The notes under the pieces were generated by a model, which made no database searches, was not told where the DNA came from, and saw only the letters and a program-made list of their open reading frames with translations. Positions 919 through 28,310 of a DNA stretch of 64,000 nt are shown one piece after another (position 1 is the first letter of the stretch; each line of letters opens with the position of its first letter). The stretch comes from Heterodontus francisci. Taxonomy: Eukaryota. A program made the translations under genes and the position numbers. The stretch spans positions 40,332,430 to 40,396,429 of the forward strand of contig NC_090399.1 in the NCBI RefSeq assembly GCF_036365525.1, in the 5' to 3' direction.

Positions 919-1172
919 GTGAGTAATGGGATGTGAGAGGGGCAGTGCCAGACTGGGTATTGGGCATTAACCCTCAGTCAGTGAGTAATGGGTTGTGAGA
1001 AGGACAGTGCCAAGCTGGATACTTGGGGCATTAACCCTCGGTCAGTGAGGAATGGTTGTGACAGGGATAGTGCCAGACTGGGTACTGGGGCATTAACCCT
1101 CGGTCAGTGAGGAATGGGTTGTGAGGGGGCAGTGCCAGACTGGGTACTGGGGCATTAATCCTCGCTCAGTGA
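919..1172 (+). repeat. ~60-bp minisatellite, block 1 (starts at the intron 1 donor)
   Basis: About 4 copies of GTGAGTAATGGG(G/T)TGTGAGAGGGACAGTGCCAGACTGGGTACTGGGGCATTAACCCTCAGTCA. Confidence 0.95.
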
Positions 1173-1801
1173 ATAAACTAATTAGTTGGGGGAGGGTTCA
1201 ATTGAAGGGACGTTTAAAAAATCTAAAAGAAACGAGAGAGCAGAGGTGCAGGATAATGAAGAGGTGAATGGTAATCAAAGTGTGACAGGAAGGGGCAGAA
1301 AATATAAGCAGAAGAGTGCAGCAGAAATTAGAACCAGAATGAGTAATAATGGTAAAAAGTCAAAGCTTAAGGCTCTTTATCTGAAATCACACAGCATTTG
1401 TAACAAGATAGATGAGTTGATGGCATGAATAGAAATAAATGAATATGACTTGATAGCAATTACAGAGACGTGGTTGCAGGCTGACAAAGACTGGGAACTC
1501 AATATTCAAGGGTATTCGACGTTCCGGAAAAATAGGTAAAAAGGAAAAGGAGGTAGGGTAGCTTTGTTAATAAAGGAAGGTTTCAGTGCGGTGGTGAGTA
1601 GTGATATAGGTGCAATAGATTGTGATGTGGAATAAGTTTGGGTGGGAATAAGGAATAGCAAGAGGAAGAAGTCATGGGTTGGAGTCGTCTGTAGGCCCCC
1701 TGAAGAGTTGCCTCATTTTAGGACAAAGTATAAATTGGGAAATAATGAAAGCATGTAAGAAGGGCACAGCAATTGTCATGGGTGATTTTAATCTGCATAT
1801 T

Positions 1802-4800
1802 CAAATAATCACAGAATCACAGAATAACACAGTGCAGAAGAGGCCCTTCGGCCCATCGAGTCTGCACCGATGCATTAAAGATACCTCTCTGTCTACCTAA
1901 TCCCATTTGCCAGTACTTGGTCCATAGCCTTGAATGTTATGACATGCCAAGTGCTCATCCAGGAACTTTTTAAAGGATGTGAGGCAACCCGCCTCAACTA
2001 CCCTCCAAGGCAGTGCATTCCAGACTGTCAAAAAAGTTCTTCCTCAAATCCCCCTTAAACCTCCTGCCCCTCACCTTAGCCTTGTGTCGCCTCGTAACTG
2101 ATCCTTCAAGTAGAGAACAGCTGCTCCCTATCCACCCTGTCCATGCCCCTCATAATCCTGTACACCTCAATCAGGTCACCCCTAAGTCTTCTCTGCTCCA
2201 GCGAGAACAACCTAAGCCTATCCAACCTCTCTTAAATGTTCCATCCCAGGCAACATCCTGCTGAATTTCCTCTGAACCCCTGCAGTGCAATCATATCCTT
2301 CCTATAATGTGGCGACCAGAATTGCACACAGTACTCCAGCTGTGGCCTTACCAAAGTTCTATACAACTCCAACATGACCTCTCTGCTTTTGTAATCTATG
2401 CCTCGATTGATAAAGGCAAGTGTCCCATATGCCTTTTTCACCACCCTATTAACCTGCCCTTCTGCCTTCAGAGATCTAGACAAACACGCCAAGTTCCCTT
2501 TATTCCTCGGAACTTCCCAGTGTCAGGCCATTCATTGAATACTTCCGTGTCACATTGCTCCTTCCAAAGTGTATCACCTCACACTTTTCAGGGTTAAATT
2601 CCATCTGTCACTTTTCTGCCCACTTGACCATCTCGTCTATATCTTCCTGTAACCCAAGACACTCAACCTCACTGTTAACCACTCGGCCAATCTTTGTGTC
2701 ATCCGTGAACTTACTGATCCTACCCCCCACATAGTCATCTATGTCGTTTATATAAATGACAAACAATAGGGGACCCAGCACAGATCCCTGTGGTACGCCA
2801 CTGGACACTGGCTTCCAGTCACTAAAACAGTCGTCTGTCATCACTCTCTGTCTCCTACGCTAAGCCAATTTTGAATCCACCTCATCAAGTTACCCTGTAT
2901 CCCATGTGCATTTGCTTTCTTGATAAGTCTCCCATGTGGGACCTTGTCAAAGGCTTTGCTGAAATCCAGGTAAATTACATCAACTGCACTACCCTCATCG
3001 ACACACCTGGTCACATGCTCAAAAAATTCAATCAAATTTGTTAGGCATGACCTCCCTCTGACAAAGCCATGTTAACTATTCCGAATCAAATTTTGCCTCT
3101 CCAAGTGGAGATAGATTCTCTCCTTCAGAATTTTCTCCAATAGTTTCCCGACCACTGACGTGAGACTCACTGGTCTGTAGTTCCCTGGCTTATCTCTACA
3201 ACCTTTCTTAAATAGTGGGACCACTTTAGCTGTTCTCCAGTCCTTTGACACCTCCCCCGTGGCCAAAGAGGAATTCAAAATTAGGGTCAGAGCCCCTGCA
3301 ATCTCCACCCTCGCCTCCCACAGCATCCTGGGACACAAATCGTCTGGACCTGGAGATTTGTCCACTTTTAAGCCTGCCAAAACCTCCAATACTTTGTCAC
3401 TCCCTGTGACAATTTGCTCAAGAACCTCACAGTCTCTCTCTGAGTTCCATATCTACATCCTCATTCTCTTGGGTGAAGACAGATGTGAAATATTCATTCA
3501 ACACCCTACCAATGTCCTCTGGCTCCACCCACAGATTTCCCCCTTGGTCCCTAATGTGTCCTACTCTTTCCCTGGTTATCCTCTTCCCATTGATATGCTT
3601 ATAGAATATCTTGGGATTTTCCCTGCTTTTACCAGCCAGAGCTTTCTCGTATCCCCTCTTTGCTCTCCTAATTGCTTTCTTAAGCTCCATCCTACACTTT
3701 CTGTACTCCACTGATGCTTCCGTTGATTTGCTCTCCTTGTATTTGCTAAAAGCCTCACTTTTCCTTCTCATCGTACCCTGAATGTTTCTGGTCATCCATG
3801 GTTCTCTGGGCTTGTTGCTCCTACCTATTACCCTAGAGGGAACACGTTGGGCCTGTACCCTCCCCATTTCCTTTTCGAATGCCCCCCACTGCTCTTCTGT
3901 AGATTTCCCGACAAGTAACTCTTTCCAGTCTACCTTGGCCAGATCCTGCCTTATTTTACTAAAATTCGTTCTCCCCCAATCCAAAACCTTTTTTTGCAAC
4001 TTGTCCATTTCTTTCTCCATAACAAGCTTAAATTTTACCATGTTGTGGTCGCTATCACCAAAATGCACCCCCACCAACACATCAACCACCTGTACGGCTT
4101 CATTCCCAAGAATTAGCTCCAGCACTGCACCTTCCCTTGTTGCATCCTCTACATATTGAGCTAAAAAGTTCTCCTGTATACATTTTAAGAACTCCAGTCC
4201 ATCTAAGCCCTTAACACGATGACTATCCCAATTAATGTTGGGAAAGTTGAAATCATCTAATATAATTACCCTATTATTATTTTTACACACCTCTGCGGGC
4301 AGCCATAAAGACGGGGCTAAAATGTGGTGAGTCGAAGAGACTTAGTAGTTGGCAGGAAAAAAGACAGAGGCGCAAGGGAAGAGCCAACTGCGCAACAGCC
4401 CAGACAAACAAATTTCTCTGCAGCACCTGTGGAAGAGCCTGTCACTCTAGAATTGGCCTTTATAGCCACTCCAGGCGCTGCTTCACAAACCACTGACCAC
4501 CTCCAGGCGCGTATCCATTGTCTCTCGAGATAAGGAGGCCAAAGAATTATTATTTTTACACACCTCTGCGAATTGTGCACATATTTGCTCCTCAATTTCC
4601 CGCTGACTATCTGGGGGTCTATAATAAACACCTAGCAATGTGGCTGTCCCTTTTTTATTCCTAAACTCTACCCATAAAGCTTCATTTGATGCCCCCTCCA
4701 AGATATCATCTCTCCTTACTGCAGTAACTGACTCCTTAACTAATATTGCAATGCCCCCTCCTCTTTTACCCCTTCCTCTGTCTCGCCTGAAGATTGTATA

Positions 4801-5205
4801 TCCCAGGATATTGAGCTGCCAATCCTGCCCCTCCCTCAGCCATGTCTCCGTGATGGCTACTATATCACAATTCCACGTGTCAATCCTTGCCCTTAACTCA
4901 TCCGCTTTACCGGTAATACTCCTGGCATTAAAGTAGAGGCCATCCATCCTGGTCTTACTCCCTTGAAACTTACTTCCGCTGTATTCCCTCTGACTTGCTT
5001 GCTTTCCTGTGTTTAGCTGTGTCCCTATTCTGCTAGGAGTCTGCGTCACCTCCCCCTGCCAAATTAGTTTAAACTCCTCCCAACAGCACGAGCAAACCTT
5101 CCAGCAAGGATGTTAGTCCCCCTCTGGTTCAGATGCAGACCGTCCCGCTTGTACAGGTCCCAGTGGTCCAGGAATCTAAAACCCTCCCTCCTGCACCAAC
5201 TCTTA
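1802..5205 (-). mobile_element. CR1-type LINE (ORF2 EN+RT, 5'-truncated), ATATT target-site duplication
   Basis: Minus-strand ORFs with YFNARSI, TETWL, DFNFPNINW, NYRPVSLTS, GVPQGSVLGP and PQLEYCVQFWSP. ATATT occurs at 1797-1801 and 5206-5210. Confidence 0.9.
4298..4545 (+). mobile_element. RTE LINE 3' fragment with 25-bp TSD
   Basis: Matches the 3' end of the RTE at ~33475-33725. ATTATTATTTTTACACACCTCTGCG is duplicated at 4273-4297 and 4546-4570. Confidence 0.9.
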
Positions 5206-5700
5206 ATATTGACTGGACAAATCAGATTAGCAGAGATAACATGGGAGAGAAATTTGTCGAGTGCATCAGGGATTGTTACTTTGAGCAATACGTTGCAGAA
5301 CCTACCAAGAAACAGGCTATTTTAGATCTAGTAATGTGTAATGAGGTAGGATTAATAAGAGATATCGTAGTTCAGGATCCTCTAGGGGGTAGCAATCACA
5401 ACATGGTAGAATTTCAAATTCAGTTTCAGGGCAAGCAACTCGGGTCTCAAACCAGTGTCCTCAACTTAAACAAGGGCAATTACGGAGGTATGAAGAAAGA
5501 GTTGCCTAAAGCGGGCTGGGAAAATAGGCTCACAGGAAGGTCAGTGGATGAGCAGTGGCAGACATTTAAGCAAATATTTCATAATGCTCAGCAAAAATTT
5601 ATCGCGGCCAAAAAGAAGGACCTGATGAGAACGATGAACCACTCATGGTTAATAAAGGCAGTCAAGGAGAGTATCCAATCAAAAACTAAGGCAGACAAAG

Positions 5701-8700
5701 ACCCAGGGTCTCTGGGGACATGGGTTCGAATCCCACCACAGCAGAAGGTGGAATTTGAATTTGTTTAATAAATCTGGAATTAAAAGCTAGTCTAATGATG
5801 GCCATGAAACCATTGTCGATTGTTGTAAAAACCCATCTGGTTCGCTAATGTCCTTCAGGGAAGGAAATCTGCTGTCCTTACCTGGTCTGGCCTACATGTG
5901 ACTCAAGACCCACAGCAATGTGGGTAACTCTTACATGCCCTCTGAAATGGCCTAGCAAGCCACTCAGTTGTACCTAATCGCTACGAAGTCATTAAAAAGG
6001 AATGAAACTGGACAGACCACCTGGCATCGACCTAGGCACCGGAAACGACAACGGCAAACCCAGCCCTGTCGACCCTGCAAAGTCCTCCTTACTAACATCT
6101 GGGGGCTTGTTCCAAAGTTGGGAGAGCTGTCCCACAGATTAATCAAGCAACAGCCTGACATAGTCATATTCACAGAATCATACCTTACAGACAATGTCCC
6201 AGACACTGCCGTCACCATCCCCGGGTATGTCCTGTCCCACCGGCAGGACAGACCCACCAGAGGTGGCGGGACAGTGATATACAGTACGGAGGGAGTTGCC
6301 CTGGGAGTCCTCAACATCGACTCCGGACCCCATGAAGTCTCATGGCATCAGGTCAAACATGGGCAAGGTAACCTCCTACTGATTACCACCTACCGCCCTC
6401 CCTCAGCTGATGACTCAGTACTCCTCCATGTTGAACACCATTTGGAGGAAGCACTGAGGGTGGCAAGGGCACAGAATGTACTCTGGGTGGGGGACTTCAA
6501 TGTCCATCACAAAGAGTGGCTCGGTAGCACCACTACTGACCGAGCTGGCCGAGTCCTAAAGAACATAGCTGCTAGACTGGGTCTGTGGCAGGTGGTGGGG
6601 GAAACAACACGAGGGAAAAACATACTTGACCTCGTCCTCACCAATCTGCCTGCTGCAGATGCTTCTGTCCATGACTGCATTGGTAGGAGTGACCACCGCA
6701 CAGTCCTTGTGGAGACGACGTCACGCCTTCACATTGAGGATACCGTCCATCGTGTTGTGTGGCACTATCACCGTGCTAAATGGGATAGATTTCAAACAGA
6801 TCTAGCAATGCAAAACTGGGCATCTATGAGGAGCTGTGGGCCATCAGCAGCAGCAGAATTGTACTGAACCACAATCTGTAACCTCATGGCCCGACATATC
6901 CCCCACTCTACCATTACCATCAAGCCAGGAGACCAACCCTGGTTCAATGAATAGTGCAGCAGGGCATGCCAGGTGCAGCACCAGGCATACCTCAAAATGT
7001 CAACCTGGTGAAGCTACAACACAGGACTATCTGCATGCCAAACTGCGTAAGCAGCATGCGATAGACAGAGCTAAGCGATCCCATAACCAACAGATCAGAT
7101 CTAAGCTCTGCACTCCTGCCACATCCAGCCGTGAATGGTGGTGGACAATGAAACAACCAACTGGAGGAGGTGGCTCCACAAATATCCCCATCCTCAATGA
7201 TGGGGGAGCCCAGCACATCAGTGCGAAAGATAAGGCTGAAGCATTTGCAACAATCTTCAGCCAGAAGTGCCGAGTTGATGATCCATCTCGGCCTCCTCCT
7301 GAAGTCCCCAGCATCATAGATGCCAGACTTCAGCCAATTCGATTCACTCCGCGTGATATCAAGAAACGACTGAAGGCACTGGATACTGCAAAAGCTATGG
7401 GCCCTGACAATATTCCGGCAATAGTACTGAAAAGCTGTGCTCCAGAACTTGTCGCGCCCCTCGCCAAGCTGTTCCTGTACAGCTACAACACTAGCATCTA
7501 CCTTGCAATGTGGAAAATTGCCCAGGTATGTCCTGTACACAAAAAGCAGGACAAGTCCAAACCGGCCAATTACCGCCTCATCAGCCTGCTCTCAATCATC
7601 AGTAAAGTGATGGAAGATGTCATCAACAGTGCTATCAAGCGGCACTTGCTTAGCAATAACCTGCTCAGTGATGCTTAGTTTGGGTTCCGCCAGGATCACT
7701 CAGCTCCTGACCTCATTACAGCCTTGGTTCAAACATGGACAAAAGAGCTGAACTCAAGAGGTGAGGTGAGAGTGACTGCCCTTGACATCAAGACAGCATT
7801 TGACCGAGTATGGCATCAAGGAGCCCTAGCAAAACTGAGGTCAATGGGAATCAGAGGGAAAACCCTCTGCTGGCTGGAGTCATACCTCGCGCAAAGGAAG
7901 ATGGTTGTGGTTGTTGGAGGTCAATCATTTGAGCTCCAGGACATCACTGCAGGAGTTCCTCAGGGTAGTGTCCTGGGCCCAACCATCTTCAGCTGTTTCA
8001 TCAATGACTTTCCTTCAATCATAAGGTCAGAAGTGGGGATGTTCGCTGATGATTGCACAATGTTCAGCACCATTCGTGACTCCTCAGATACTGAAGCAGT
8101 CCGTGTAGACATGCAGCAAAACCTGGACAATATCCAGGCCTGGGCTGATAAGTGGCAAGTAACATTCGCGCCACACAAGTGCCAAGCAATGACCATCTCC
8201 AACAAGAGAGAATCTAGCCATCTCCCCTTGACATTCAACAGCAGTACCATCGCTGAATCCCCCACTATCAACATCCTAGGGGTTACCATTGACCAGAAAC
8301 TGAACTGGAGTAGCAGGTCAGAGGTTAGGAATCCTGAGGCAAGTAACTCACCTCCTGTCTCCCCAAAGCCTGTCCACCATCTACAAGGCACAAGTCAGGA
8401 GAGTGATGGAATACTCTTCACTTGCCTGGATGGGTGCAACTCCAGCAACACTCAAGAAGCTCGACACCATCCAGGACAAAGCAGCCCACTTGATTGGCAC
8501 CCCATCTACAAACATTTACTCCCTCCACCACTGATGCACAGTAGCAGCAGTGTGTACGATCTACAGGATGCACTGCAGCAATGCACCAAGGCTCCTCAGA
8601 CAGCACCTTCCAAACCCGCGACCTCTTCCAACTAGAAGGACATGGGCAGCAAATACATGGGAACACCACCACCTGCAAGTTCCCCTCCAAGTCACACACC

Positions 8701-8910
8701 ATCCTGACTTGGAACTATATTGCTGTTCCTTCACTGTTGCTGGGTCAAAATCCTGGAACAACCTTCCTAACAGCACCGTGGGTGTACCTACCCCAAATGG
8801 ACTGCAGCGGTTCAAGAAGGCAGCTCACCACCACCTTCTAAAAAGCAATTAAGGATGGGCAATAAATGCTGGCCTGGCCAGCGACGCCCACATCCCATGA
8901 ATGAATTTTT
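5701..8910 (+). mobile_element. CR1-group LINE (single EN+RT ORF, disrupted) with tRNA/SINE-like 5' region
   Basis: B-box-like GGGTTCGAATCCC at 5722-5734. ORFs carry FTESYL, GDFNVHH, SDH, GPDNIP, DIKTAFDRVWH, GVPQGSVLGP and FADD. 3' end AATAAA...CACATCCCATGAATGAAT. Confidence 0.9.
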
Positions 8911-10817
8911 AAAAAAGCAGCAAAAACTAATGGTCGGCGAGTCGATAGGGAATTTTTTAGGAACCAGCAGTGGATGACTAAAAAGCTAATAAAGAGGGAG
9001 ACAATTGATTCTGAAAGTAAATAGGCAAAAAATATAAAAGCAAACAGCAAGAGCTTCTACGGATATATAAAAAGAGAGTAGCTAAAGTGAGTGTGGGACC
9101 CTTGGAGGATGCAACTGGAGAATTGATAACGGGGAACAGGGAAATGGCAGATAATTTAAACCAATATTTTGCATCGGTCTTCACGGCGGAGGACACTATA
9201 AACATCCCACAGATATCAGATAAGCAAGGAGCTAATGGGAGGAAAGATCTTGTAACAGTCTCTATCACGATGGACAAAGTATTTGACAAACTAATGGGGC
9301 TAAAGGCAGACAAGTTCCCAGGACCTGATGGCCTACATCCAAGGGTTTTAAAGGAGGTGGCTGCAGAGATAGTGGAGGCATTGGTCGAAATATTCCAGAA
9401 CTCACTGGATTCTGGGAGGGTCCAGCGGATTGGAAAACCACTAATGTGATGCCCCTGTTCAAGAAGGGAGGGAAACAAAAAGCAAGAAACTACAGGCCAG
9501 TCAGCCTAACATCGGTCATTGGAAAAATGCTGGAGTCCATTATTAAGAAAGAAATAGCAGGACATTTAGAAAAGCTTAACGCAATCAAACAGAGTCAACA
9601 TGGTTTTGTGAAAGGGAAATCATGTTTGACAGATTTGCTAGAGTTATTTGGGATAACGGGGAACCGGTAGATGGAGTGTATTTAGATTTCCAGAAGGCAT
9701 TTGATAAGGTGTCACATAAAAGATTATTGCACAAGATAGGAGCTCATGGTATTGGGGGTAATGTATTAGCATGGATTGAGGATTGGTTAACTCACAGAAG
9801 ACAGATTCTGGATTAATGGGTCTTTTTCAGGTTGGAAATACATAACTAATGGAGCGCCATAAGGATCAGGCTTGGGGCCTCAATTATTTACTATCTATAT
9901 TCATGACTTGGAGGAGGGGGCAGAGTGTAATATATCCAAATTTGCTAATGATACAAAATAGGTGGGAGGCCATGTTGTGATGAGGACATAAGGAATCTGA
10001 AAGGGGATATAGATAGGTTGAGTGAGTGGGCAAAAACTTGGCAGATGGAGTTTAATGTGGGGAAGTGTGAGATCAAAAGGCAGACTATTATTTAAATGCA
10101 CAGAGGGATTTGGGTGTTCTTGTGCATGAAACACAAAGTTAACATGCAGGTGCAGCAAATAACTAAGGCGGCAAAAGGAATTTTGGCCTTTATTGCTCGG
10201 GGGTTGGAGTTTAAAAATAGGTAAATCTTATTACAACTGTACCGGGTGTTGGTGAGACCGCACCTGGAGTACTGCGTCTAATTTTGGTCCCCGTATTTAT
10301 GAAAGGATTTACTGGCATTGGAGGCAGTTCAAAAGAGGTTCACGAGGCTGATTCCTGGGATGAAGGGGTTGACTTATCAAGAACGGCTAAACAGATTAGG
10401 CCTTTATTCATTCGAGTTTAGAAGAATGAGGGGTGATCTTATTGAAAGGTACAAGATACTGAGGCGGCTTTACAGGGTAGATGTTGAGAAGATGTTTCAC
10501 TAGTGGGGGAATCTCAAACTAGGAGACATAGTTACAGAATAAGGGGACACTCATTTAAAACTGAGATGCGAAGGAATTTCTTCTCTGAGGGTAGTGAATG
10601 TCTGGAATTCTCTCCCCCAGAAAGTTGTGGAGACTAGATCACTGAAAGTATTTAAAAAAGAGGTAGATTTTTGAAATATTGGGGAGTTGAGGGCTATGAG
10701 GAGCTGGCACGAACGAGGAGTTGAGGTCTTGGGCAGATCAGCCGTGATCTTATTGATTGGCAGGGCAGGCTTGAGGGGCCGAATAGCCTACTCCTGTTCC
10801 TATTTCTGATGTTCTTA

Positions 10818-11430
10818 ATGGGGTGTGAGAGACAGAGCCAACTGGGTACTGGGGCATTAACCCTCAGTCAGTGAATAATGGTGTGTGAGAGAGACAGTGC
10901 TAGACTGGGTACTGGGGCATTAATCCTTGGTCAGTGAGTAATGGATTGTGAGAGGGACAGTTCTAGACTGGGTACTGGGGCATTAACCCTCGGTCAGTGA
11001 GTAATGGGGTGTGAGAGGGATAGTGCTAGACTGGGTACTGGGGCATTAATCCTTGGTCAGTGAGTAATGGGGTGTGAGAGGGATAGTACTAGACTGGGTA
11101 CTGGGGCATTAATCCTTGGTCAGTGAATAATGGGGTGTGAGAGGGATAGTGCTAGACTGGGTACTGGGGCATTAACCCTCAGTCAGTGAGTAATGGGGTG
11201 TGAGAGGGATAGTGCTAGACTGGGTACTGGGGCATTAACCCTCAGTCAGTGAGTAATGGATTGTGAGAGGGACAGTGCCAGACTGGGTACTGGGGCATTA
11301 ACCCTCAGTCAGTGAGTAATGGATTGTGAGAGGGACAGTGCCAGACTGGGTACTGGGGCATTAACCCTCAGTCAGTGAGTAATGGTGTGTGAGAGGGACA
11401 GTTCTAGACTGGGTACTGGGGCTTAACCCT
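10818..11430 (+). repeat. ~60-bp minisatellite, block 2
   Basis: About 10 near-identical copies of the same unit as 919-1172. Confidence 0.95.
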
Positions 11431-14782: not shown

Positions 14783-14966
14783 CTCAGTCAGTGAATAATG
14801 GTGTGTGAGAGGGATAGTGCTAGACTGGGTGCTGGGGCATTAACCCTCGGTCAGTGAGTAATGGGTTGTGAGAGGGACAGTGCCAGACTGGGTACTGGGG
14901 CATTAACCCTCGGTCAGTGAGTAATGGGGTGTGAGAGGGACAGTGCCAGGCTGGATACTGGGGCAT
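14783..14966 (+). repeat. ~60-bp minisatellite, block 3
   Basis: About 3 further copies of the same unit. Confidence 0.95.
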
Positions 14967-18095: not shown

Positions 18096-18312
18096 AATTC
18101 TCTGGGGTTATATTCAAGAGCTCCCCCACCTCACATGGTGTTAACAGTCCGCACTCCAATGCTGAGCTCCAAGAAGCTGCAGATTTTGGGTCTCAGAGCT
18201 CATCATATTGTAGATGATGCTGCAGGAGGAGGCCACACAGATTATAACAATAATTTATATTTATATATCACCTTTAATGTATTGAAAGGTTAGTGCACCA
18301 AGTTCCAGGTAA

Positions 18313-18613: not shown

Positions 18614-18617
18614 ATCA

Positions 18618-19157
18618 CTACTCAACTCTTCTGAATAATCTGTTACTCATAATCAAATCTTACACAATCATCAAAGAGAGTTCAGAGCATAAACTCCAAA
18701 ACACCAACCCCATACAGAGAGACACATCAGGACATGACCCCCAAATTGGGTTAGATTGTGGGGGGACTGGAGGAGGAACAGGTGAGACATGAGTTCACAG
18801 AGTCTCTGATGGGGAGGCCAGTGAGATTTTGGGGAGGGAGATCACAGGCTTAGAGAGCACGGTCGGAGGTTGGGGAGGGAGATTGTGGGGTATGGACACC
18901 TCTTTCTCTCTTTGTGGGTTTGGAGGTGTGGCATTGATGTTTTAGGGTTCATGCCCTGATGTTTCTTTTTCTGTGGGGCTGGTGTTTTGGGGTTCATGCC
19001 CGGATACCTGTCTCTCTGTGAGGTTGGTATTTGGGGGTCATGTTCTGATGTGTCTCTCTGTGTGGGGTTGGTGTTTTGGAGTTCATGCTCTGAACTCTCT
19101 TTGATGATTGTGTAAGATTTGATTACGAGTAACAGATTATTCAGAAGAGTTGAGCAG
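18618..19157. repeat. 129-bp inverted repeat (arms 18618-18746 and 19029-19157)
   Basis: The arms are near-perfect reverse complements separated by a ~280-nt spacer. Confidence 0.9.
18935..19100 (+). repeat. ~43-bp tandem repeat homologous to the alpha1 acceptor region
   Basis: About 4 copies of TTGGTGTTTTGGGGTTCATG(T/C)CCTGATGT(G/T)TCTCTCTGTGTGGGG. The same unit appears at 22962-23000 directly before the alpha1 AG. Confidence 0.75.
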
Positions 19158-19715
19158 TCACAAGTGGTTCAGTTTAAAGGTTTAAATGCAGTTTATTGAG
19201 AAGTTACAGTTCAAATACAACACATCATCCGAATCGCTATAGTAGACACATGACCCCTGACAGCTGAGAAGGCATACAGTTCGTGGATTGGACAGACAGA
19301 ATGGCTTGGCCACTGCCCCCTACTGTAACGATCTCTTAAACCACTTTCACCCCTTCAGGCTGATCAGGGTGTTAACTGGAAGCGAGCAACCCTAAAGCGC
19401 CTCCTCCCTTCAACCTGTCCTTTTTTTCCTTTTGAACAGCTTGTTTATATACTCTATTTTTAGGGCTGGTGGTTGTCCCATTCCAATCACTCGTTTGGTT
19501 ACATCTTCCCATTCCAATTATCCAGTTGTTCAGAGACAGGTACGTAATGAAAACCCCACCTTTTTCAGTGCCCAGCCCATGAAGTCATCTCATTAGTTTC
19601 ACCAGATAGTCATTTAGATATATGGGTATGAGGCCCCATCTGATTGGGCCAGGTATATTCCACACAAAGGCATGTGCCTGGCAGAGCTATGTCTCTAGCT
19701 AGGTAATTTAGACAA
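19111..19715 (-). mobile_element. Possible LTR (solo or partial), minus orientation
   Basis: Begins TGTAAG and contains TTTATT (~19192) and TTATAT (~19445), consistent with minus-strand polyA and TATA signals. The far boundary and a TSD were not resolved. Confidence 0.35.
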
Positions 19716-20541
19716 CGATCAACTGGCAAATACAATCCATCTTGGCTGTTGATTAAAGGCTGACAAGTCCCCTGGACCTGATGGCCTGCATCTTAGTATC
19801 TCTAAGTAAGTGGCTGCAGAGATAATGGATGCATTGGTTGTAACTTTCCAAAATTCCCTAGATTTTGGAGAAGTCCCAGCGAATTGGAAAACTACAAATG
19901 TAACACCCCTATACAAGAAAGTTTTGGTGGGGGTGGTGTCAGAAAGTGGGAAACTGTAGGCCGGTTAGCCCAACATCTGTTATTGGGAAAATACTAGAAT
20001 CCGGCATTAAGGAAGTAGTTGTAGGACATTTAGAAAATCATAATACAAATCAGGCAGAGTCAACATGGTTTTATGAACCTGAAATTGTGTTTGACATATT
20101 CATTGGAGTTGTTTAAGGATGTACCAGGCAGGGTAGATAAAGGGGAATCAGTAGATCTAGTGTATTTGGATTTCCAAAAGTCATTCCATAAGGTGCCACA
20201 TAAAAGGTTACTAAACAGATAACAGCTGATGGTGTTGAGGGTAATATATTAGCATAGATAGAGGATTTCTAACTAATAAGAAATTGATAGTCGGGATAAA
20301 TGGGGCATTTTCAGACTGCCAAACTGTTACTAGTGGATTGCCACAGGGATCTGTGCTGGGGCCTCAAGTATTTACGATCTATATTAATGACGGATGAAGG
20401 GAGTGAGTGTATTGTAGCCAAATTTACAGACAATTCAAAGATAGCTAGGAAAGTGAGTTGTGAGGAAGACAAAGTGTCTGCAAAGGGATATGGATCAGTT
20501 AAGTAAGTGGACAAAAATTTGGCAGATGGAGTATAATGTGG

Positions 20542-21441
20542 TGTCAGGCAAACCCTACCTGCCAAGAAAGGAGGAAAAATCATTTCATCGCATGAACATT
20601 GATTTTAAACTGCTGATGGTGAAGATAGAACTTACTTTAAAAAACTATTGAAATCTTTGGCTGGAGACATTAACATATCCACAGACAGTACTTCAAAGAA
20701 CAAAGGAGCTGTTCCCTGCTCCAATTTAATCCACTTTTGATTACCAGACATTGAAGCATTCCATAACTACTAAGATGGCCGAATACACAAACAGATGTGG
20801 TCAGAACAGTTTGGTCACATGACTGACTGACTGTTGGAGATTTTTGAATTAGAGTTTCCAACAGAATGTTTGAAAATCAGAAGGCTGTTAGCTCCTGGAC
20901 TGAGAACACCTCTCCTGCCTGCTCTAATCTTGCTCTCACCAGCTTCGGAAGCACTGAAGACATCTGAATCCCAAGATAGAAAAGTCTGTTACAGTGAACA
21001 AGATTTAAGCTCTTACAATGAAAAGTAAGAGCTGTCTACAATCAAGGACTCTACAGCAAGCTGCAGCCACAGAAACAGTAACAAAAAAATACCCTTTAGA
21101 GACTGCCTCAAACCTCTCCATTTTATTTTTCTTCTACTCTTTTCTGTCCCTATTTGCATGTGTGTATCGTGTGTGCATGCTGGCGTGGACACATCGTGTA
21201 TCCATCGGCATTAACCATATTAGAGTTTCAGTTTCAGGTTTAATAAATTACACTTTTCTTCTTTACACCTAAGGAAGCCTGTTTATGCTAATTTCTTTGC
21301 CATATAATTGGAAAACTGTGAACAAGGATTCACAAAGGGAGAAGCTCAAAACACAGTGCGTCTAAAATTAAAGTCTGTTATAATAAGACCAGGTAAAGAC
21401 CGTAAAAAACCCCTAGACACCTTTCTCACCTGGTTGTAACA
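20542..21441 (+). mobile_element. Solo LTR (900 bp), GTGG TSD
   Basis: TGTCAGG...TGTAACA termini. GTGG occurs at 20538-20541 and 21442-21445. The CR1 frame resumes across it. Confidence 0.85.
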
Positions 21442-21504
21442 GTGGGAAAATGTGAGATTAGCCACTTTGGCAGGAAGAATAGAAAAGCAGATTATTTATT
21501 CGGA

Positions 21505-21865
21505 GCAGTGTGCACCATCTAAAAGATGCATTGCAGCAAATCACCAAGGCTCTTTCAACAGCACCTTCCAAACCCGTGACCTCTACCACCTAGAAGGACA
21601 AGGGCAACAGATGCATGGGAACACCACCAGCTGCATTTCCCCTCCAAGCCACACAGCATCCTGACTTGGAAATATATTGTCAATCCTTCTCTGTCGCTGG
21701 GTCAGAATCTTGGAACGTCCTTCCTAACAGCACTATTGGCATACCTACACTCCAAGGACTGCAGCGATTCAAGAAGGCAGCTCACCACCGCCTTCTCAAG
21801 GGCAATTAGGGATACGCAATAAATGCTGGTCTAGCCAGCAATACCCACATCCTGTGAATGAAAAA
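21505..21865 (+). mobile_element. 3' fragment of the CR1-group LINE family seen at 5701-8910
   Basis: Homologous to 8545-8905. Confidence 0.85.
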
Positions 21866-22680
21866 ACAGAGAATGCAGAAAGCTGCGGTACAGAGGGAGC
21901 TGGGTGTTCTTGTACATGAATCCCAAAAAGTTAGCATGTAAGTAGTAAGTAAGTAATTAGGAAGGCAACTGGAATTTTGCTATTTATTGAAAGGAGGATG
22001 GAATATATAGGGCAATCTTGCTACAATTGTACAGGCCATTGCTGAGACTGCACCTAGATTACTCAGTATAATTTTGCCCTCCTTGCTGAGGGAGTGATAT
22101 ACCTCCATCCTTCAGAGAAGGTTCACTAGGTTGATTCCTGGGATGAGGGGTTTGTCTTCCGAGCAAAGGTTGAGCAGGTTGTGCCTATACTTATTGCAGT
22201 TAGATGATTTAGGTGATCTTATTGAAACATATGTTTCTGAGGGACTTGACAGGGCTGATGCTCAAAGGATGTTTCTCCTCATGGGGGAATCTAGAACTAG
22301 AGGACACGTATTCAAAATAAAGGGTCTCCCTTTTAGGATGGAGATGAGGTGGAATTTCTTCTCTCGGAGGATTGTTAATCTTTGGAATTCTCTTCCCCAG
22401 ACAGCAGTGGAGGCTGAGTGAAATAGATTTTTGATCCTCCAGGGAGTCAAAAGGTTACTGGGGTGGTGGTGGCAAGAAAGTGGAGTTAAAGCCACAGTCG
22501 GATCAGCCATGATCTTAATAAATGGTGGAGCAGGCTCGAGGGGCCGAATGGCCTACTCCTGCTCCTATTTCTTATGTTCTTACCTTGAGCATATAGTTGG
22601 AGAATTGCTTGAAGTGAGAGAGAAAGAAAGAACCTTTGCTAAGAAGACAAAGTCCCAGCATTTCTCCTACAACTAAATTG

Positions 22681-22917
22681 ACAGGGCTAAATTGTGGCGA
22701 GTCGAAGAGACTTAGTAGTTGGCAGGAAAAAAGACAGAGGCGCAAGGGGAGAGCCAACTGTGCAACAGCCCCAACAAACAAATTTCTCTGCAGCACCTGT
22801 GGAAGAGCCTGTCACTCCAGAATTGGCCTTTATAGCCACTCCAGGCGCTGCTTCACAAACCACTGACCACCTCCAGGCGCGTATCCATTGTCTCTCGAGA
22901 TAAGGAGGCCCAAAAGA
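22681..22917 (+). mobile_element. RTE 3' fragment ~90 nt upstream of the alpha1 exon
   Basis: Near-identical to 33490-33725 ([21 protein letters not shown] zinc finger). Confidence 0.9.
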
Positions 22918-23007
22918 TTTCTAGTAATTTAATAATATCCTTAAAACTACAATTTCTTATATTGGTGTTTTGGGGTTTGTGTCCTGATGTTTCTCTTTGT
23001 TTTTCAG

Positions 23008-23250
23008 GCTCTCACTCTCTCCGGTATTTCGCTACCCGCATGACTCCGATTCCCGGTTTCCCGGAGTTTGTGGGTGTTGGTTCTGTTGACGATGTCCAGT
23101 TTGTTATGTACGACAGCGATCGGAAGCAGTTGATTCCCCGGGAGCAGTGGATGTTGGAAAGCGAGGGGCCTGAGTCCTGGATGCAGAGGCAGGAGCTGCA
23201 TTCTAAAATCTACCTTCCAATACTCACATCCCAGTCCAACCAGTCGGAAG
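23008..23250 (+). CDS. MHC class I exon 2 (alpha1 domain)
   Basis: ttttcag|GC TCT CAC...GAA G|gtgagt; 243 nt; (G)[57 protein letters not shown]...NQSE; NQS glycosylation sequon retained. Confidence 0.95.
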
Positions 23251-23577
23251 GTGAGTCTTCACCCTTCCGCCTCACTCTGCCTCTTTCTGTGGGATGAGGG
23301 ATCCGGGCGGGGATGGGGAAAAGTCGGGAATAGTGCGGGAGCCAGGATAACAAGAAACGTGGCTCCGTCTCCCAGAGCAGAGCAGAGCCGGCAGTCAAAG
23401 CGAGCGGGGATGGGGCAATGGCTCCGTCTCCCAGAGCAGAGCAGAGCAGAGCCGGCAGTCAAAGCGAGCGGCCTCACATCACTTCATGAACATTTATCCA
23501 AAGACTGGCAAACGCGATGTCCTTAAAATACAAAGGGGCCCTTTAAATAGCCGCAGCTCCCCAGGAGATGTGGGACA

Positions 23578-23762
23578 GGCAGTGTGGGCGTGGTCTCCCA
23601 GTGAGGCCAGTTTTCATTGGCTGAGGTAGTGGGCGGGGTCTCCCACTGAGACGAGTTTGATTGGCTGTGAGGTAGTGGGCGGGGTCTCCCGGTGGGACCG
23701 CTTTTGATTGGTTGTTAGGTAGTGGGCGTGGCCTCCCAGGCGGATCTGCTTTATTGGCTGTG
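23578..23762 (+). repeat. ~46-bp tandem repeat in intron 2, each unit with a GC box and ATTGG
   Basis: Four units of AGGTAGTGGGCG(G/T)GG(T/C)CTCCC...ATTGG(C/T)TG, ending next to the alpha2 acceptor. Confidence 0.85.
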
Positions 23763-23778
23763 TGCGCCTGATTGACAG

Positions 23779-24051
23779 GGATCCACACGTACCAGATGCA
23801 ACTCGGCTGTGAGCTGCGGGATGATGGGACCAGGACTGCGTTTGCTCAGACGAGATGGGACGGACGAGAATTCATGACATTTGACAAGGATCACGTAGTG
23901 TGGGAGACTCCGGTCCATTGGGGGAAGGGCATCCAAAGCAAGTGCAACCAGAACAGCGCTGACAAACTGCAATGCAAACACAGCCTGGAGGTTATGTGTT
24001 TTGAATGGCTGAAGAAATTTCTGCAGTACGGACAGCGAGAACTGAGTGTTG
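23779..24051 (+). CDS. MHC class I exon 3 (alpha2 domain)
   Basis: gacag|GG ATC CAC...GTT G|gtgagt; 273 nt; GIHTYQMQLGCELRDDG...WDGREFMTFDKDHVVWETPVHWG...CFEWLKKFLQYGQRELSV, with the conserved C101/C164 pair. Confidence 0.95.
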
Positions 24052-27000
24052 GTGAGTGGAGGTGGTGGCCGAGGGAGTGAGGGGAGGTGGTGGCCGAGGG
24101 AGTGAGGGGAGGTGGTGGCCGAGGGAGTGAGGGGAGGTGGTGGCCGAGGGAGTGGGGGGAGGCGGTGGGGGGGGCGAGGGAGTGGGGGGAGGCGGTGGGG
24201 GTGGGGCGAGGAAGTGGGAGGAGGCGGTGGGGGTGGGGCGAGGGAGTAGGGGGTGGGGGTGGGGCAAGGGAGTGGGGGGAGGGAGTGGGGGGAGGCGGTG
24301 GGGGGGGCGAGGGAGTGGGGGGAGGCGATGGGGGGGGCGTGGGGGTGGGGGCGAGGGAGTGTGGTGGGGGGGAGGGAGTGGGGGGAGGCGATGGGGGGGG
24401 TGTGGGGGTGGGGGCGAGGGAGTGTGGTGGGGGGGAGGGAGTGGGGGGAGGCGATGGGGGGGGCGTGGGGGTGGGGGCGAGGGAGTGTGGTGGGGGGGAG
24501 GGAGTGGGGGGAGGCGATGGGGGGGGTGTGGGGGTGGGGGCGAGGGAGTGTGGTGGGGGGGAGGGAGTGGGGGGAGGCGATGGGGGGGGTGTGGGGGTGG
24601 GGGCGAGGGAGTGTGGTGGGGGGGAGGGAGTGGGGGGAGGCGATGGGGGGGGTGTGGGGGTGGGGGCGAGGGAGTGTGGTGGGGGGGAGGGAGTGGGGGG
24701 AGGCGATGGGGGGGGTGTGGGGGTGGGGGCGAGGGAGTGTGGTGGGGGGGAGGGAGTGGGGGGAGGCGATGGGGGGGGCGTGGGGGTGGGGGCGAGGGAG
24801 TGTGGTGGGGGGGAGGCGGTGGGGGGGGGAGGGAGTGGGGGGAGGCAGTGGGGGGGGAGGGAGTGGGGGGAGGCGGTGGGGGGGGAGGGAGTGTGGGGAG
24901 GCGGTGGGGGGAGGAGGGAGAGTGGGGGGGGAGGGAGTGTGGGGAGGCGGTGGGGGGGGGAGGGAGTGGGGGGAGGCGGTGGGGGGGGAGGGAGTGGGGG
25001 GAGGCGGTGGGGGGGGAGGGAGTGTGGGGAGGCGGTGGGGGGGGGAGGGAGAGTGGGGGGGGGAGGGAGTGTGGGGAGGCGGTGGGGGGGGGGAGGGAGT
25101 GTGGGGAGGCGGTGGGGGGGGGGAGGGAGTGTGGGGAGGCGGTGGGGGGGGAGGGAGTGGGGGGAGGCGGTGGGGGGGAGGCGAGGGAGTGGGGGGGAGG
25201 CGGTGGGGGGGCGAGGGAGTGGGGGGGAGGCGGTGGGGGGGCGAGGGAGTGGGGGGGAGGCGGTGGGGGGGGCGAGGGAGTGGGGGGGAGGCGGTGGGGG
25301 GGGGCGAGGGAGTGGGGGGGAGGCGGTGGGGGGGGCGAGGGAGTGGGGGGAGGCTTTGGGGGGGGCGAGGGAGTGGGGGGAGGCGGTGGGGGGGGCGAGG
25401 GAGTGGGGGGAGGCGGTGGGGGGGGCGAGGGAGTGGGGGGAGGCGGGTGGGGGGGGTGCGAGTGAGTGGGGGGAGGCGGGTGGGGGGGGTGCGAGTGAGT
25501 GGGGGGAGGTGGTTGGGGGGGGTGCGAGGGAGTGGGGGGAGGTGGTTGGGGGGGGTGCGAGGGAGTGGGGGGAGGTGGTGGGGGGGGGTGCGAGGGAGTG
25601 GGGGGAGGTGGTGGGGGGGGTGCGAGGGAGTGGGGGGAGGTGGTGGGGGGGGTGCGAGGGAGTGGGGGGGAGGTGGTGGGGGGGGTCGAGGGAGTGGGGG
25701 GAGGTGGTGGGGGGGGGGTCGAGGGAGTGGGGGGAGGTGGTGGGGGGGGGGTCGAGGGAGCGGGGGGAGGTGGTGGGGGGGGGGTCGAGGGAGCGGGGGG
25801 AGGTGGTGGGGGGGGGGTCGAGGGAGCGGGGGGAGGTGGTGGGGGGGGGGTCGAGGGAGCGGGGGGAGGTGGTGGGGGGGGGTCGAGGGAGCGGGGGGAG
25901 GTGGTGGGGGGGGGTCGAGGGAGCGGGGGGAGGTGGTGGGGGGGGGTCGAGGGAGCGGGGGGAGGTGGTGGGGGGGGTCGAGGGAGCGGGGGGAGGTGGT
26001 GGGGGGGGGTCGAGGGAGCGGGGGGAGGTGGTGGGGGGGGGGTCGAGGGAGCGGGGGGAGGTGGTGGGGGGGGGGTCGAGGGAGCGGGGGGAGGTGGTGG
26101 GGGGGGGTCGAGGGAGTGGGGGGGGGTCGAGGGAGCGGGGGGAGGTGGTGGGGGGGGGTCGAGGGAGCGGGGGGAGGTGGGGGGGGTCGAGGGAGCGGGG
26201 GGAGGTGGTGGGGGGGGGTCGAGGGAGCGGGGGGAGGTGGGGGGGGTCGAGGGAGCGGGGGGAGGTGGTGGGGGGGGGTCGAGGGAGCGGGGGGAGGTGG
26301 GGGGGGTCGAGGGAGCGGGGGGGAGGTGGGGCGGGTCGAGGGAGCGGGGGGGAGGTGGGGGGGGGGTCGAGGGAGCGGGGGGAGGTGGGGGGGGGGCGAG
26401 GGAGCGAGGGGAAGTGGTGGGGGCGAGGGAGCGAGGGGAAGTGGTGGGAGCGAGGGGAAGTGGTGGGGGCGAGGGAGCGAGGGGAAGTGGTGGGGGCGAG
26501 GGAGCGAGGGGAAGTGGTGGGGGCGAGGGAGCGAGGTGAAGTGGTGGGGGCGAGGGTGCGAAGGGAGGTGGGACCGGGGGGAGGCGGTGGGGGCGAGGGA
26601 CCGGGGGGAGGCGGTGGGGGCGAGGGACCGGGGGGAGGCGGTGGGGGCGAGGGAGTGAGGGGAGGTGGTGGGAGTGAGGGGAGGTGGTGGGGGCGAGGGT
26701 GCGAGGGGAGGTGGGGTGGGCGAGGGAGCGAGGGGAGGTGGGCGAGGGAGCGAGGGGAAATGGTGGGGGCGAGGGAGCGAGGGGAAATGGTGGGGGCGAG
26801 GGAGCGAGGGGAAATGGTGGGGGCGAGGGAGTGAGGGGAAATGGTGGGGGCGAGGGAGTGAGGGGAAATGGTGGGGGCGAGGGAGTGAGGGGAAATGGTG
26901 GGGGCGAGGGAGTGAGGGGAAATGGTGGGGGCGAGGGAGTGAGGGGAAATGGTGGGGGCGAGGGAGTGAGGGGAAATGGTGGGGGCGAGGGAGTGAGGGG

Positions 27001-28258
27001 AAATGGTGGGGGCGAGGGAGTGAGGGGAAATGGTGGGGGCGAGGGAGTGAGGGGAAATGGTGGGGGCGAGGGAGTGAGGGGAAATGGTGGGGGCGAGGGA
27101 GTGAGGGGAGATGGTGGGGCGAGTGAGTGAGTGGAGGTGGCGGGGGCGAGGGTTTGTGGGGTTGAGGGTCGGTGAGGGAGTGAGGGGCGGTGGGGATGCG
27201 AGGGAGTGAGGGGCGGTGGGGATGCGAGGGAGTGAGGGTCGGTGGGGGGGGCGAGAGAGTGAGGGCGACGAGGGAGTGAGGGGCGGCGTGGGAGTGAGGG
27301 GTGGTGGGGGCGTGTGAGGGAGGGGAGGTGGTGGGGGCGATGGTCGGCGAGGGAGCGAGGGGTGGTGGTGGGGCGATGGTCGGCGAGGGAGCGAGGGGAG
27401 GTGGTGGGGGGGGCGAGGGGAGGTGGGGCGAGGGGAGGAGAGGGGGTGAGGGGAGGTGGGGGGCACGAGGGAAGGATGTGGGGGGGGAGGGAGCGAGGGA
27501 AGGAAGTGGGGGGGGAGGGAGCGAGGGGAGGATGTGGGGGGGAGCGAGGGGAGGTGGTGGGGGTGCGCGAGGGTACGAGGGGATGTGGATGAGGAGGGCG
27601 AGGGGTGGTGGTGGGGGGGCGAGGGAGCGAGGGGTGGTGGGGGGGCGAGGGAGCGAGGGGGGGTGGTGGGGGGGCGAGGGAGCGAGGGGAGGTGGTGGGG
27701 GGGCGAGGGTGCGAGGGGATGAGGGGCTGAGCGTCGGCGAGGGAGTGAGGGGAGGTGGTGGGGGGGCGAGGGAGTGAGGGGAGGCGAGGGGGCGAGGGGA
27801 GGTGGTGGGGGGGCGCGAGGGTACGAGGGGAGGTGATGAGGGGGGCGAGGGAGTGAGGGGAGGTGGTGGGGGGGCGAGGGAGTGAGGGGAGGCGAGGGGA
27901 GGGGGTGGAGGGGTGAGGGAGCGAGGGGAGGTGGTTGGGCGAGGGTCAGCGAGGGAGCGAGGGGTGGTGGTGGGGCGAGGGTCAGCGAGGGAGCGAGGGG
28001 AGGTGGGGGCGCGAGTGTCGGCGAGGGGAGGTGGGGCGCGAGGGTCGACGAGGTAGTGAGGGGAGTCGGGGGGCGAGGGAGTGAGGGGAGGCGGGGGCCG
28101 AGCGTCGGCGAGGGAATGTGGGGCATTGGGGGCTGGGGGTCGGCGAGGGAGTGAGGGGGAGGTGGGTGGCGAGGGAGTGAGGGGAGGTGGGGGGGGGCGA
28201 GGGTCGGCGAGGGAGTGAGGGAAGGTGGGGGGCGAGGGTCGGTGAATGGGGAGCCGGG
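24052..28258 (+). repeat. 4.2-kb extremely G-rich compound minisatellite filling intron 3
   Basis: Successive variant blocks built on a GAGGGAG(T/C)G core, including a 63-bp unit (~8 copies, ~24310-24810) and a 27-bp unit GGGGGCGAGGGAGTGAGGGGAAATGGT (~13 copies, ~26750-27115). Confidence 0.95.
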
Positions 28259-28310
28259 GCACAGTACCTCAAGGTTCTTGTACTGATTCCTCTTTTTTTC
28301 TCTCTCTCAG

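What the first reader, a model, noticed from the sequence alone, without database searches (positions are those of the whole stretch)
919..28310. Every intron of this MHC gene has a tandem repeat anchored on a splice site
Seen: intron 1 5' end has a 60-bp donor-containing unit. Intron 1 3' end has a 43-bp unit (18935-19100) whose last copy forms the alpha1 polypyrimidine tract (22962-23007), now separated by ~3.8 kb of insertions. Intron 2 3' end has a 46-bp unit running into the alpha2 acceptor. Intron 3 5' end has a G-rich unit starting at GTGAGTGGAGG and reusing GAGTGAG. Inference: exon-flanking VNTRs shared among paralogues could act as homology handles for exon-scale gene conversion or domain shuffling in a multigene class I family. 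I know of no description of this arrangement, but could not search.
Basis: partly seen in the sequence, partly recalled or inferred. Interest (0 to 1): 0.7.

Follow-up and report, generated by a model that had tools for sequence, protein, structure and literature searches.

The report
Shared splice-edge repeats in shark MHC
Short DNA repeats start or end right at several splice signals of a likely broken shark immune (MHC class I) gene, and the same repeats sit at the same places in its sister genes and in front of the unrelated TAP2 gene; they likely grew from exon edges and likely get copied between genes, but exon swapping also appears where no repeat lies, so they are probably passengers rather than drivers.

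Summary
The four arrays are real, but 'every intron' is too wide. They touch 4 of 7 splice sites (introns 1-3), with none in intron 4. The gene is a likely pseudogene of a shark class Ib cluster: leader one base short, alpha1 18 bases short, no transmembrane exon. Paralogues share the arrays. Only 5 of 416 control splice sites are anchored this way, though neighbouring genes hold many intronic arrays further in. The type is known (human F7, amphioxus 'mirages', DRB-STR), and this scan noted such arrays before elsewhere in this genome. Three results go beyond that. The 43-bp unit differs by 0-4 of 39 bases between lineages about 20-50% diverged at silent sites. The same unit forms a 98.7-kb array in front of the first coding exon of TAP2. 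TAP1 and TAP2 share one exon (4 of 174 bases differ) together with its donor array. So exon-scale exchange happens and arrays likely travel between genes. Exchange signs also appear without arrays, and tree conflict is modest, so a causal 'handle' role is unproven.

The parts
871..918 (+). Leader exon, coding part; one base shorter than in paralogues, which shifts the frame
   Evidence: 48 coding bases against 49 in 7 of 7 paralogues
919..1176 (+). 62/63-bp array starting at the leader donor; internal copies are weak donors
   Evidence: heuristic donor scores 3.7-5.0 against 12.1 for the true site; same array in 8 of 8 leader loci
1177..10815 (.). Intron 1 sequence with LINE-type inserts that split the 63-bp array
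   Evidence: reverse-transcriptase motifs on both strands (motifs recalled)
10816..11430 (+). 63-bp array remnant, 9.8 copies
14783..14966 (+). 63-bp array remnant, 2.9 copies
18927..19100 (+). 43-45-bp array, 3.9 copies, cut off from the alpha1 acceptor
   Evidence: 51 kb long in paralogue g42.46
19101..22960 (.). About 3.9 kb of inserts between the array and its last copy
   Evidence: LINE motifs; a 242-bp part is absent from g42.73
22961..23007 (+). Last copy of the 43-bp unit, running into the polypyrimidine tract and acceptor of alpha1
   Evidence: 32 of 38 match, 0 of 1000 shuffles
23008..23250 (+). Alpha1 exon, 243 bases (261 in most paralogues; short form shared with g42.33)
23584..23762 (+). 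46-47-bp array ending 16 bp before the alpha2 acceptor; the unit holds a GC-box-like and a CCAAT-like motif (labels recalled)
23779..24051 (+). Alpha2 exon
   Evidence: best PDB match is MHC class I chain 6lup_A, E 1e-22
24052..28244 (+). G-rich array filling intron 3, starting at the alpha2 donor; in several paralogues the unit begins 11 bases inside the exon
28311..28574 (+). Alpha3 exon; no array at its donor
54946..55412 (+). Block that lies behind the transmembrane exon in paralogue g32.88; no transmembrane exon precedes it here

Best explanation
These are splice-edge minisatellites that likely arose by slippage at exon boundaries in an ancestral shark class I gene, were likely inherited through gene duplication, and are likely kept alike between loci by ectopic gene conversion, riding along with exchange rather than causing it. 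Shown: the arrays, their sharing among paralogues, their length range (4 copies to tens of kb), their splitting by inserts in this copy, use of the first donor in assembled likely-RNA, near-identity of the 43-bp unit across old lineages and in front of TAP2, and a shared exon plus array in TAP1/TAP2. Inferred: birth by slippage in a repeat-prone region; one end pinned because growth into the exon or loss of the true site is selected against; conversion as the cause of unit identity; transfer of the 43-bp array from a class I intron to TAP2 by a non-allelic event. The window copy is likely a pseudogene.
For: Region effect: 39 of 120 non-class-I sites on C29 have an array within 300 bp, against 2 of 288 on other chromosomes; the stretches fetched around TAP2 and a PSMB exon are 71% and 99% tandem repeat. 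Donor-anchored arrays with other units occur in two non-class-I places on C29 (L333, L334). Inheritance: leader donor 8 of 8, alpha1 acceptor 18 of 28, alpha2 donor 15 of 27 loci. Likely-RNA contigs leave at the first donor and continue in alpha1 sequence; no joint at an internal copy was listed, as reported for F7 (PMC1557585). Homogenisation: unit consensus 0-4 of 39 differences where alpha1 four-fold sites differ at 5 of 24 to 11 of 21 between lineages. Exchange without arrays: g32.21 and g32.88 alpha3; protein P0178 is closest to g67.04 in alpha1 (74% vs 48%) but to g66.35 in alpha2 (86% vs 71%), across an intron 2 that has no array in g66.35.
Against: Anchoring in class I is far above the regional rate (3 of 120 within 30 bp), which plain regional instability does not explain; only three or four independent origins are involved, though. 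Between the window gene and g42.46/g32.77, intron 1 (7.6-8.0% different) and the alpha3 flank (7.5%) are younger than intron 2 (21-25%, only about 70 bp alignable), so both steps fall at or next to arrays, as handles predict. The TAP1/TAP2 tract ends in a shared array. Unit identity could reflect selection rather than conversion, and the consensus method anchored on an 8-base motif favours similar units.
Confidence: 0.58

Rival explanations
1. The arrays are working recombination handles: shared units on both sides of the alpha1-alpha2 block start or resolve exchange between paralogues and can carry a splice site to an unrelated gene.
For: Units nearly identical across old lineages. A 98.7-kb array of the class I unit ends in an acceptor-like site in front of TAP2, with the same 39-base consensus as class I genes g66.53/g66.84 in 10 of 10 ten-kb blocks. 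TAP1/TAP2 homology starts 8-16 bases before the acceptor and runs into a shared donor array. Silent divergence among five sub-lineages is 19-40% in alpha1 and 14-44% in alpha2 against 3-17% in alpha3. Alpha2 rejects the tree favoured by the flanks (AU p 0.005), and intron 4 rejects all three trees that alpha2 allows (p 0.017-0.030).
Against: Alpha3 prefers the same tree as alpha2, so no topology break maps to the intron-3 array; pooled flanks do not reject the alpha2 tree (p 0.077). Four-fold differences are significant in 6 of 10 non-independent pairs, and alpha3 is also slower against outgroups. Arrays fill most of intron 3, so breaks there are expected by length. Homogenised alpha3 without adjacent arrays. 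The TAP exon is homogenised in sturgeon and paddlefish too, array status unknown. Teleost alpha1/alpha2 shuffling is ascribed to intron length (PMC6523485).
Confidence: 0.25
2. The units are kept by selection as splicing or transcription elements: G-runs and pyrimidine tracts that help define exons next to very long introns, and GC-box/CCAAT-like motifs in the intron-2 unit.
For: Unit sequence conserved far beyond silent sites. The alpha2 acceptor has a weak pyrimidine tract (heuristic score 5-6). All four arrays have the G/T-rich strand as sense.
Against: Copy number runs from 1-4 to about 1,200. Genes lack given arrays: g46.14 and g52.27 at alpha1, g32.21 in intron 3, and g66.35/g66.72/g67.04 use other units at alpha1. 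No functional data.
Confidence: 0.14
3. The arrays, or their sharing, are assembly artefacts.
For: One apparent inversion at the intron-3 array of g42.33 has a 200-N gap beside it. Lengths of 50-100 kb arrays are hard to assemble.
Against: Units match contigs of short-read runs (one sample only, possibly the source of the assembly). Arrays recur at homologous sites in many diverged paralogues with locus-specific variants. No N in the TAP2 stretch.
Confidence: 0.03

Closest known systems
Human F7 intron 7 37-bp VNTR and the like cases in 6-16, CBS, lamin B2 and PDGF (PMC1557585; passages read)
   Same: Minisatellite whose first unit sits on an exon-intron boundary and repeats the donor motif; the first site is used.
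   Different: Those are single arrays of 5-25 units in single genes. Here three or four boundaries of one gene family carry arrays, up to tens of kb, shared across old paralogues; in the window gene the internal donors are degenerate.
Amphioxus 'mirage' minisatellites (PMC3087553; passages read)
   Same: Tandem copies of 5' or 3' exon-intron boundaries, unstable in length, no harm to splicing. The paralogue alpha2-donor unit that starts 11 bases inside the exon fits this.
   Different: The 63-, 43- and 46-bp units hold little or no exon sequence. Sharing of one unit between unrelated genes was not in the passages read.
Primate DRB-STR at the start of DRB intron 2 (PMC4629986; passages read)
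   Same: Repeat beside the peptide-binding exon, shared by most paralogues, proposed to promote recombination; one crossover mapped inside it.
   Different: A dinucleotide microsatellite near, not on, the splice site; class II; one site only.
Alpha1/alpha2 shuffling through intron 2 in teleost class I genes (PMC6523485; passages read)
   Same: Domain-scale mosaic class I sequences.
   Different: Ascribed to long introns and mostly allelic exchange; no repeat anchors named in the passages read.
Elasmobranch multicopy class Ib UBA cluster (PMC10751288; parts 1-3 of 7 read)
   Same: Multicopy class I cluster away from the TAP/PSMB class Ia region and next to the col11a2/rxrb block.
   Different: No intron repeats in the parts read; lineage assigned here by position, not by a labelled reference.

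Membership tests
Splice-boundary minisatellite (F7 type / mirage) | Head-to-tail array whose end unit overlaps or abuts a true splice site | tested here: met
   919, 23007, 23762 (16 bp short), 24052
Splice-boundary minisatellite (F7 type / mirage) | Units repeat exon end plus splice signal | tested here: inconclusive
   Met for the alpha2-donor unit in 6 of 27 loci, where the array starts 11-39 bases inside the exon. In the window gene the units repeat the intron-side motif only, with weak scores; in the 51-kb array only 3 of 173 AG sites score as acceptors.
Splice-boundary minisatellite (F7 type / mirage) | The authentic site is the one used | tested here: met
   Likely-RNA contigs leave at 916-919 into alpha1 sequence of paralogues; no internal joint listed. 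Leader donor only; one sample; contigs drop rare forms.
Splice-boundary minisatellite (F7 type / mirage) | Copy number varies between alleles | not tested
   Varies between paralogues; no second haplotype examined
MHC class I heavy-chain gene | Leader, alpha1, alpha2, alpha3 exons in phase 1 | tested here: met
MHC class I heavy-chain gene | Intact leader frame and transmembrane exon (functional membrane-bound gene) | tested here: not met
   Leader one base short; no match to five paralogue transmembrane exons anywhere in the window
Elasmobranch UBA class Ib lineage | Multicopy cluster apart from the class Ia region, beside the rxrb/col11a2 block | tested here: met
   Eight close alpha3 copies at 32-43 Mb; a fibrillar collagen taken as COL11A2 at 43.2 Mb; TAP/PSMB at 65-66 Mb. 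rxrb and c4 were not located.
Elasmobranch UBA class Ib lineage | Groups with reference UBA sequences | tested here: inconclusive
   Alpha3 79% to nurse shark protein P0169 and 69% to the class-Ia-region type P0178; no record was labelled UBA
Repeat-mediated recombination hotspot | Breakpoints enriched inside the array per base | tested here: inconclusive
   Steps at arrays for the window lineage, none needed for g32.21/g32.88; trees conflict only in part
Repeat-mediated recombination hotspot | Raised crossover or conversion rate measured in meioses | not testable with these tools
   Needs pedigrees, sperm typing or population haplotypes

The most novel reading that the evidence does not exclude
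In the shark MHC, splice-edge minisatellites are mobile splice-site cassettes and recombination handles: one acceptor-forming unit is held nearly identical across class I lineages hundreds of millions of years apart, was grafted in front of TAP2, and a donor array closes the exon-sized tract that TAP1 and TAP2 keep exchanging, so the arrays set the boundaries of exon-scale exchange among antigen-presentation genes.
Probability: 0.22. Interest if true: 0.78.

Novelty: new variant of a known kind. Interest (0 to 1): 0.47.

Why it matters
How MHC genes swap peptide-binding exons while keeping their flanks alike is a long-standing question, and repeats next to those exons have been suspected without proof. 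This genome offers a natural experiment: paralogues with and without each array, array lengths from 4 to over 2,000 copies, one unit shared with an unrelated gene, and a sharply bounded TAP1/TAP2 conversion tract. If breakpoints concentrate in arrays, it would show a cis element that steers exon shuffling in the oldest adaptive immune system. If not, it is still a clear case of repeats hitch-hiking on gene conversion, and a caution that giant arrays break assemblies and annotation of the shark MHC.

Tried and rejected
Generic feature of shark introns: rejected; 0 of 126 sites on C1-C28, 0 of 68 on C30-C51 and 0 of 74 in next-door COL11A2 are anchored within 30 bp. Generic feature of tandem gene families: rejected; 0 of 94 sites in two myosin heavy-chain genes. 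Rows dropped before that count: four loci with weak predicted splice sites (L101, L126, L139, L143), L043-L045, the TAP loci L096-L098 (TAP2 was counted from its contiguous stretch; the two TAP1 donors at +3 are not in the tally), and hits left out beforehand as multi-exon, single-exon or duplicate. Splice sites were predicted with a heuristic matrix of my own, not from annotation. Capture of a class I promoter and leader by TAP2: no match to the leader, 63-bp unit or class I exons in the 110 kb up to the array start, nor to the leader, 63-bp unit or alpha1 in the 100 kb below it. Use of the TAP2 acceptor-like site: contigs reach within 5 bases of it but show no upstream exon, so no verdict. 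Reality of the leader deletion: the DNA run has no cover there and transcripts with the extra base may come from paralogues, so no verdict. No holder was on record as RNA; X5-X8 are guessed RNA. Inversion at an array in g42.33: set aside, assembly gap. Human TAP1/TAP2 sequences could not be displayed; that they are near-identical over the same exon is recalled, not checked. Genome-wide spread of the 43-bp unit: 1,540 exact matches, the first 100 listed all at class I places on C29, the rest not shown. Paper searches showed no description of these shark arrays or of TAP1/TAP2 exon conversion in their listings; one search returned 0 papers. Passages of PMC7883663 and PMC10620051 held nothing on splice-edge arrays. 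Subscription papers and supplements were not seen.
Full report
Setting. The window is G000:C29:40,332,430-40,396,429 in a 6-Gb genome. The exons match an MHC class I chain best (6lup_A) and shark class I proteins. C29 carries class-I-like alpha3 exons from 32 to 67 Mb, a fibrillar collagen taken as COL11A2 at 43.2 Mb, and TAP and PSMB genes at 65-66 Mb. By position this is likely the multicopy UBA class Ib cluster of PMC10751288 (parts 1-3 of 7 read). Paralogues are named by Mb position (g42.46 and so on).

The gene. Leader 871-918, alpha1 23008-23250, alpha2 23779-24051, alpha3 28311-28574. The leader is one base shorter than in 7 of 7 paralogues, and alpha1 is 18 bases short, as in g42.33. 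No transmembrane exon was found in the window, although the block that follows it in g32.88 is present at 54946-55412. It is likely a pseudogene. The single-base loss could not be checked with reads.

The observation. TRF finds all four arrays. The 62/63-bp unit starts on the leader donor and continues in two remnants split off by LINE-type inserts. The 43-45-bp array is 3.9 kb from the acceptor, but its last copy forms the acceptor region (32 of 38 match, 0 of 1000 shuffles). The 46-47-bp array ends 16 bp before alpha2. The G-rich array starts on the alpha2 donor and ends 66 bp before alpha3. The alpha1 donor and alpha3 donor have none. So 4 of 7 sites are anchored, and 'every intron' holds for introns 1-3 only.

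Sharing among paralogues. Within 30 bp of the site: leader donor 8 of 8, alpha1 acceptor 18 of 28, alpha1 donor 1 of 28, alpha2 acceptor 4 of 27, alpha2 donor 15 of 27, alpha3 acceptor 0 of 19, alpha3 donor 3 of 19, transmembrane exon 0 of 5 on either side. These are inherited copies, not independent events. Lengths vary widely: the 43-bp array is 51 kb in g42.46. In several genes the alpha2-donor unit starts 11 bases inside the exon, a true copy of the junction. All 93 matches of the leader plus 63-bp query lie on C29 or on three unplaced contigs (40 of 44 candidates scored).

Controls. Arrays of at least 100 bp within 30/100/300 bp of a predicted splice site: C1-C28 0/0/0 of 126; C30-C51 0/2/2 of 68; myosin cluster 0/0/0 of 94; COL11A2 0/7/22 of 74; other C29 genes 1/4/7 of 26; TAP2 2/5/10 of 20; unplaced 2/5/6 of 8. 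So C29 is rich in intronic minisatellites (39 of 120 within 300 bp against 2 of 288 elsewhere), but strict anchoring is rare outside class I (5 of 416). It is not unique to class I: two donor arrays that earlier notes placed in other C29 genes are there (L333, L334).

Splicing. Likely-RNA contigs leave the leader at the first donor and go on in alpha1 sequence of paralogues; no joint at an internal copy was listed (one sample, contigs only). Internal copies score as weak donors. This matches F7, where only the most upstream site is used (PMC1557585, passages), and amphioxus mirages (PMC3087553, passages).

Is there exon-scale exchange in class I? Among five sub-lineages, silent divergence is 19-40% in alpha1 and 14-44% in alpha2, but 3-17% in alpha3; the same contrast holds in the 46-Mb and 66-67-Mb clusters. 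Unique intron sequence differs by 6.7-8.0% in intron 1 among the window gene, g42.46 and g32.77, and by 11-25% in intron 2. Alpha2 rejects the tree favoured by the flanks (AU p 0.005), and intron 4 rejects the three trees alpha2 allows (p 0.017-0.030). Against this: alpha3 prefers the alpha2 tree, pooled flanks do not reject it (p 0.077), four-fold sites give p below 0.05 in 6 of 10 non-independent pairs, and alpha3 is slower against outgroups too. The family is mosaic, but modestly shown. For the window lineage both steps lie at or beside arrays. For g32.21 (no intron-3 array) and g32.88 (array 1.35 kb from alpha3) alpha3 is as close to the others, with short flanks. Protein P0178 mixes a g67.04-like alpha1 with a g66.35-like alpha2 across an intron that has no array in g66.35. 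Alpha1/alpha2 shuffling in teleosts is ascribed to long introns (PMC6523485, passages).

Are the arrays themselves exchanged? The 39-base consensus of the 43-bp unit differs by 0-4 bases among the eight genes with 9 or more units counted other than g32.88, and g32.88 falls in the same range (nine genes in all, plus the four-unit window array). Alpha1 four-fold sites differ at 10 of 20 (g32.21 vs g60.11, unit 1 difference), 11 of 21 (g42.46 vs g66.53, 4 differences) and 5 of 24 (g60.11 vs g66.53, 2 differences). Neutral arrays evolving alone should drift further, so conversion between loci or selection is needed. The consensus method favours similar units, and the unit is of low complexity.

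Two findings outside the window. First, the same unit forms an array from 65,681,500 to 65,780,178 (98.7 kb, no N) that ends in an acceptor-like site directly before the first coding exon of a TAP2-type gene. Its consensus equals that of g66.53 and g66.84 in 10 of 10 blocks. No class I leader or exon was found upstream. Transfer from a class I intron is the likely origin; use of the site is not shown. Second, the Walker-A exon of that TAP2 and of two TAP1-type genes differs at 4 of 174 bases. Homology starts 8-16 bases before the acceptor and runs into a shared 27-28-bp donor array, while the preceding exon is 56% identical. But the exon is 91-100% identical between TAP1 and TAP2 in 14 of 16 same-species or same-genus pairs from sharks, rays, paddlefish and sturgeon, against 33-78% for neighbouring exons; the two exceptions are Albula (83%) and Polypterus (74%). 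The conversion is therefore old and recurrent, the 174-bp exon can serve as its own handle, and whether those species have the array is untested.

Mechanism. Most likely (0.58): slippage at exon edges in a repeat-prone region made the arrays; selection on the true splice site pinned one end; duplication spread them; ectopic conversion keeps them alike and now and then carries them, while exon exchange does not depend on them. Handles that drive exchange: 0.25. Selected splicing or transcription elements: 0.14. Artefact: 0.03.

Comparison and novelty. Splice-edge minisatellites (F7 type, mirages) and repeats beside MHC exons with a suspected role in recombination (DRB-STR, PMC4629986, passages) are known. 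Earlier notes of this scan reached a similar 'by-product' reading for other class I genes of this genome; they are not independent support. Not seen in my ten paper searches or in two look-ups of the scan's notes: family-wide conservation of the unit, its presence before TAP2, and the TAP1/TAP2 exon-plus-array tract. The library lacks most subscription papers and no supplements were read. Verdict: new variant of a known kind, interest 0.47.

Noticed in passing
G000:C29:65,681,500-65,780,178 (L278, L285-L292, L305): 98.7-kb array of the class I 43-bp unit ends at an acceptor-like site before the first coding exon of a TAP2-type gene; it starts abruptly behind a different G-rich 43-bp array.
   Followed up: yes
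L096, L097, L098 (TAP genes at C29 65.15, 65.32, 65.65 Mb): Walker-A exon near-identical between TAP1 and TAP2 with a shared donor array; the exon evolves in concert within species across sharks, rays, sturgeon and paddlefish.
   Followed up: yes
G000:C29 65.15 and 65.32 Mb: Two TAP1-type genes and one TAP2-type gene were found in the class Ia region.
   Followed up: partly
L279-L284, L310-L315 (C29 65.83-65.94 Mb): A 205-bp PSMB exon sits between arrays of at least 38 kb (37-bp unit) and about 71 kb (51-bp unit).
   Followed up: no
L214 and L195 (g42.33): Alpha3 lies on the opposite strand to alpha1/alpha2; a 200-N gap at the end of the G-rich array points to a flipped contig.
   Followed up: yes
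L306-L309 (C29 about 65.78 and 65.81 Mb): A unique stretch with two kappaB-like motifs (label recalled) occurs twice upstream of the TAP2 array, each copy followed by a related G-rich array; possible duplicated promoter.
   Followed up: no
L338, L339, L341 (g66.84, g66.35, g66.72 intron 1): Intron 1 of the class-Ia-region genes is a string of different arrays (64-65, 40, 51, 39, 32, 137 bp); the 137-bp unit of g66.35/g66.72 repeats the alpha1 acceptor itself.
   Followed up: no
L157-L164 (C29 43.28-43.36 Mb): About 77 kb of merged tandem repeat (40-bp unit reported) inside the COL11A2 region.
   Followed up: no
window 57900-62100: Degenerate AT-rich array of about 51-52-bp units, interrupted by a LINE fragment.
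   Followed up: no
window 54760-54941 and 57293-57555: A 76-bp near-perfect duplication and a 33/22-bp array related to a unit seen at several other loci.
   Followed up: no
L006 (C29 32.07 Mb): Another copy of the cluster with a frameshifted alpha2 exon.
   Followed up: no
P0121-P0130: Some ray and shark records hold several alpha3-like domains in one protein; may be fusions or annotation errors.
   Followed up: no
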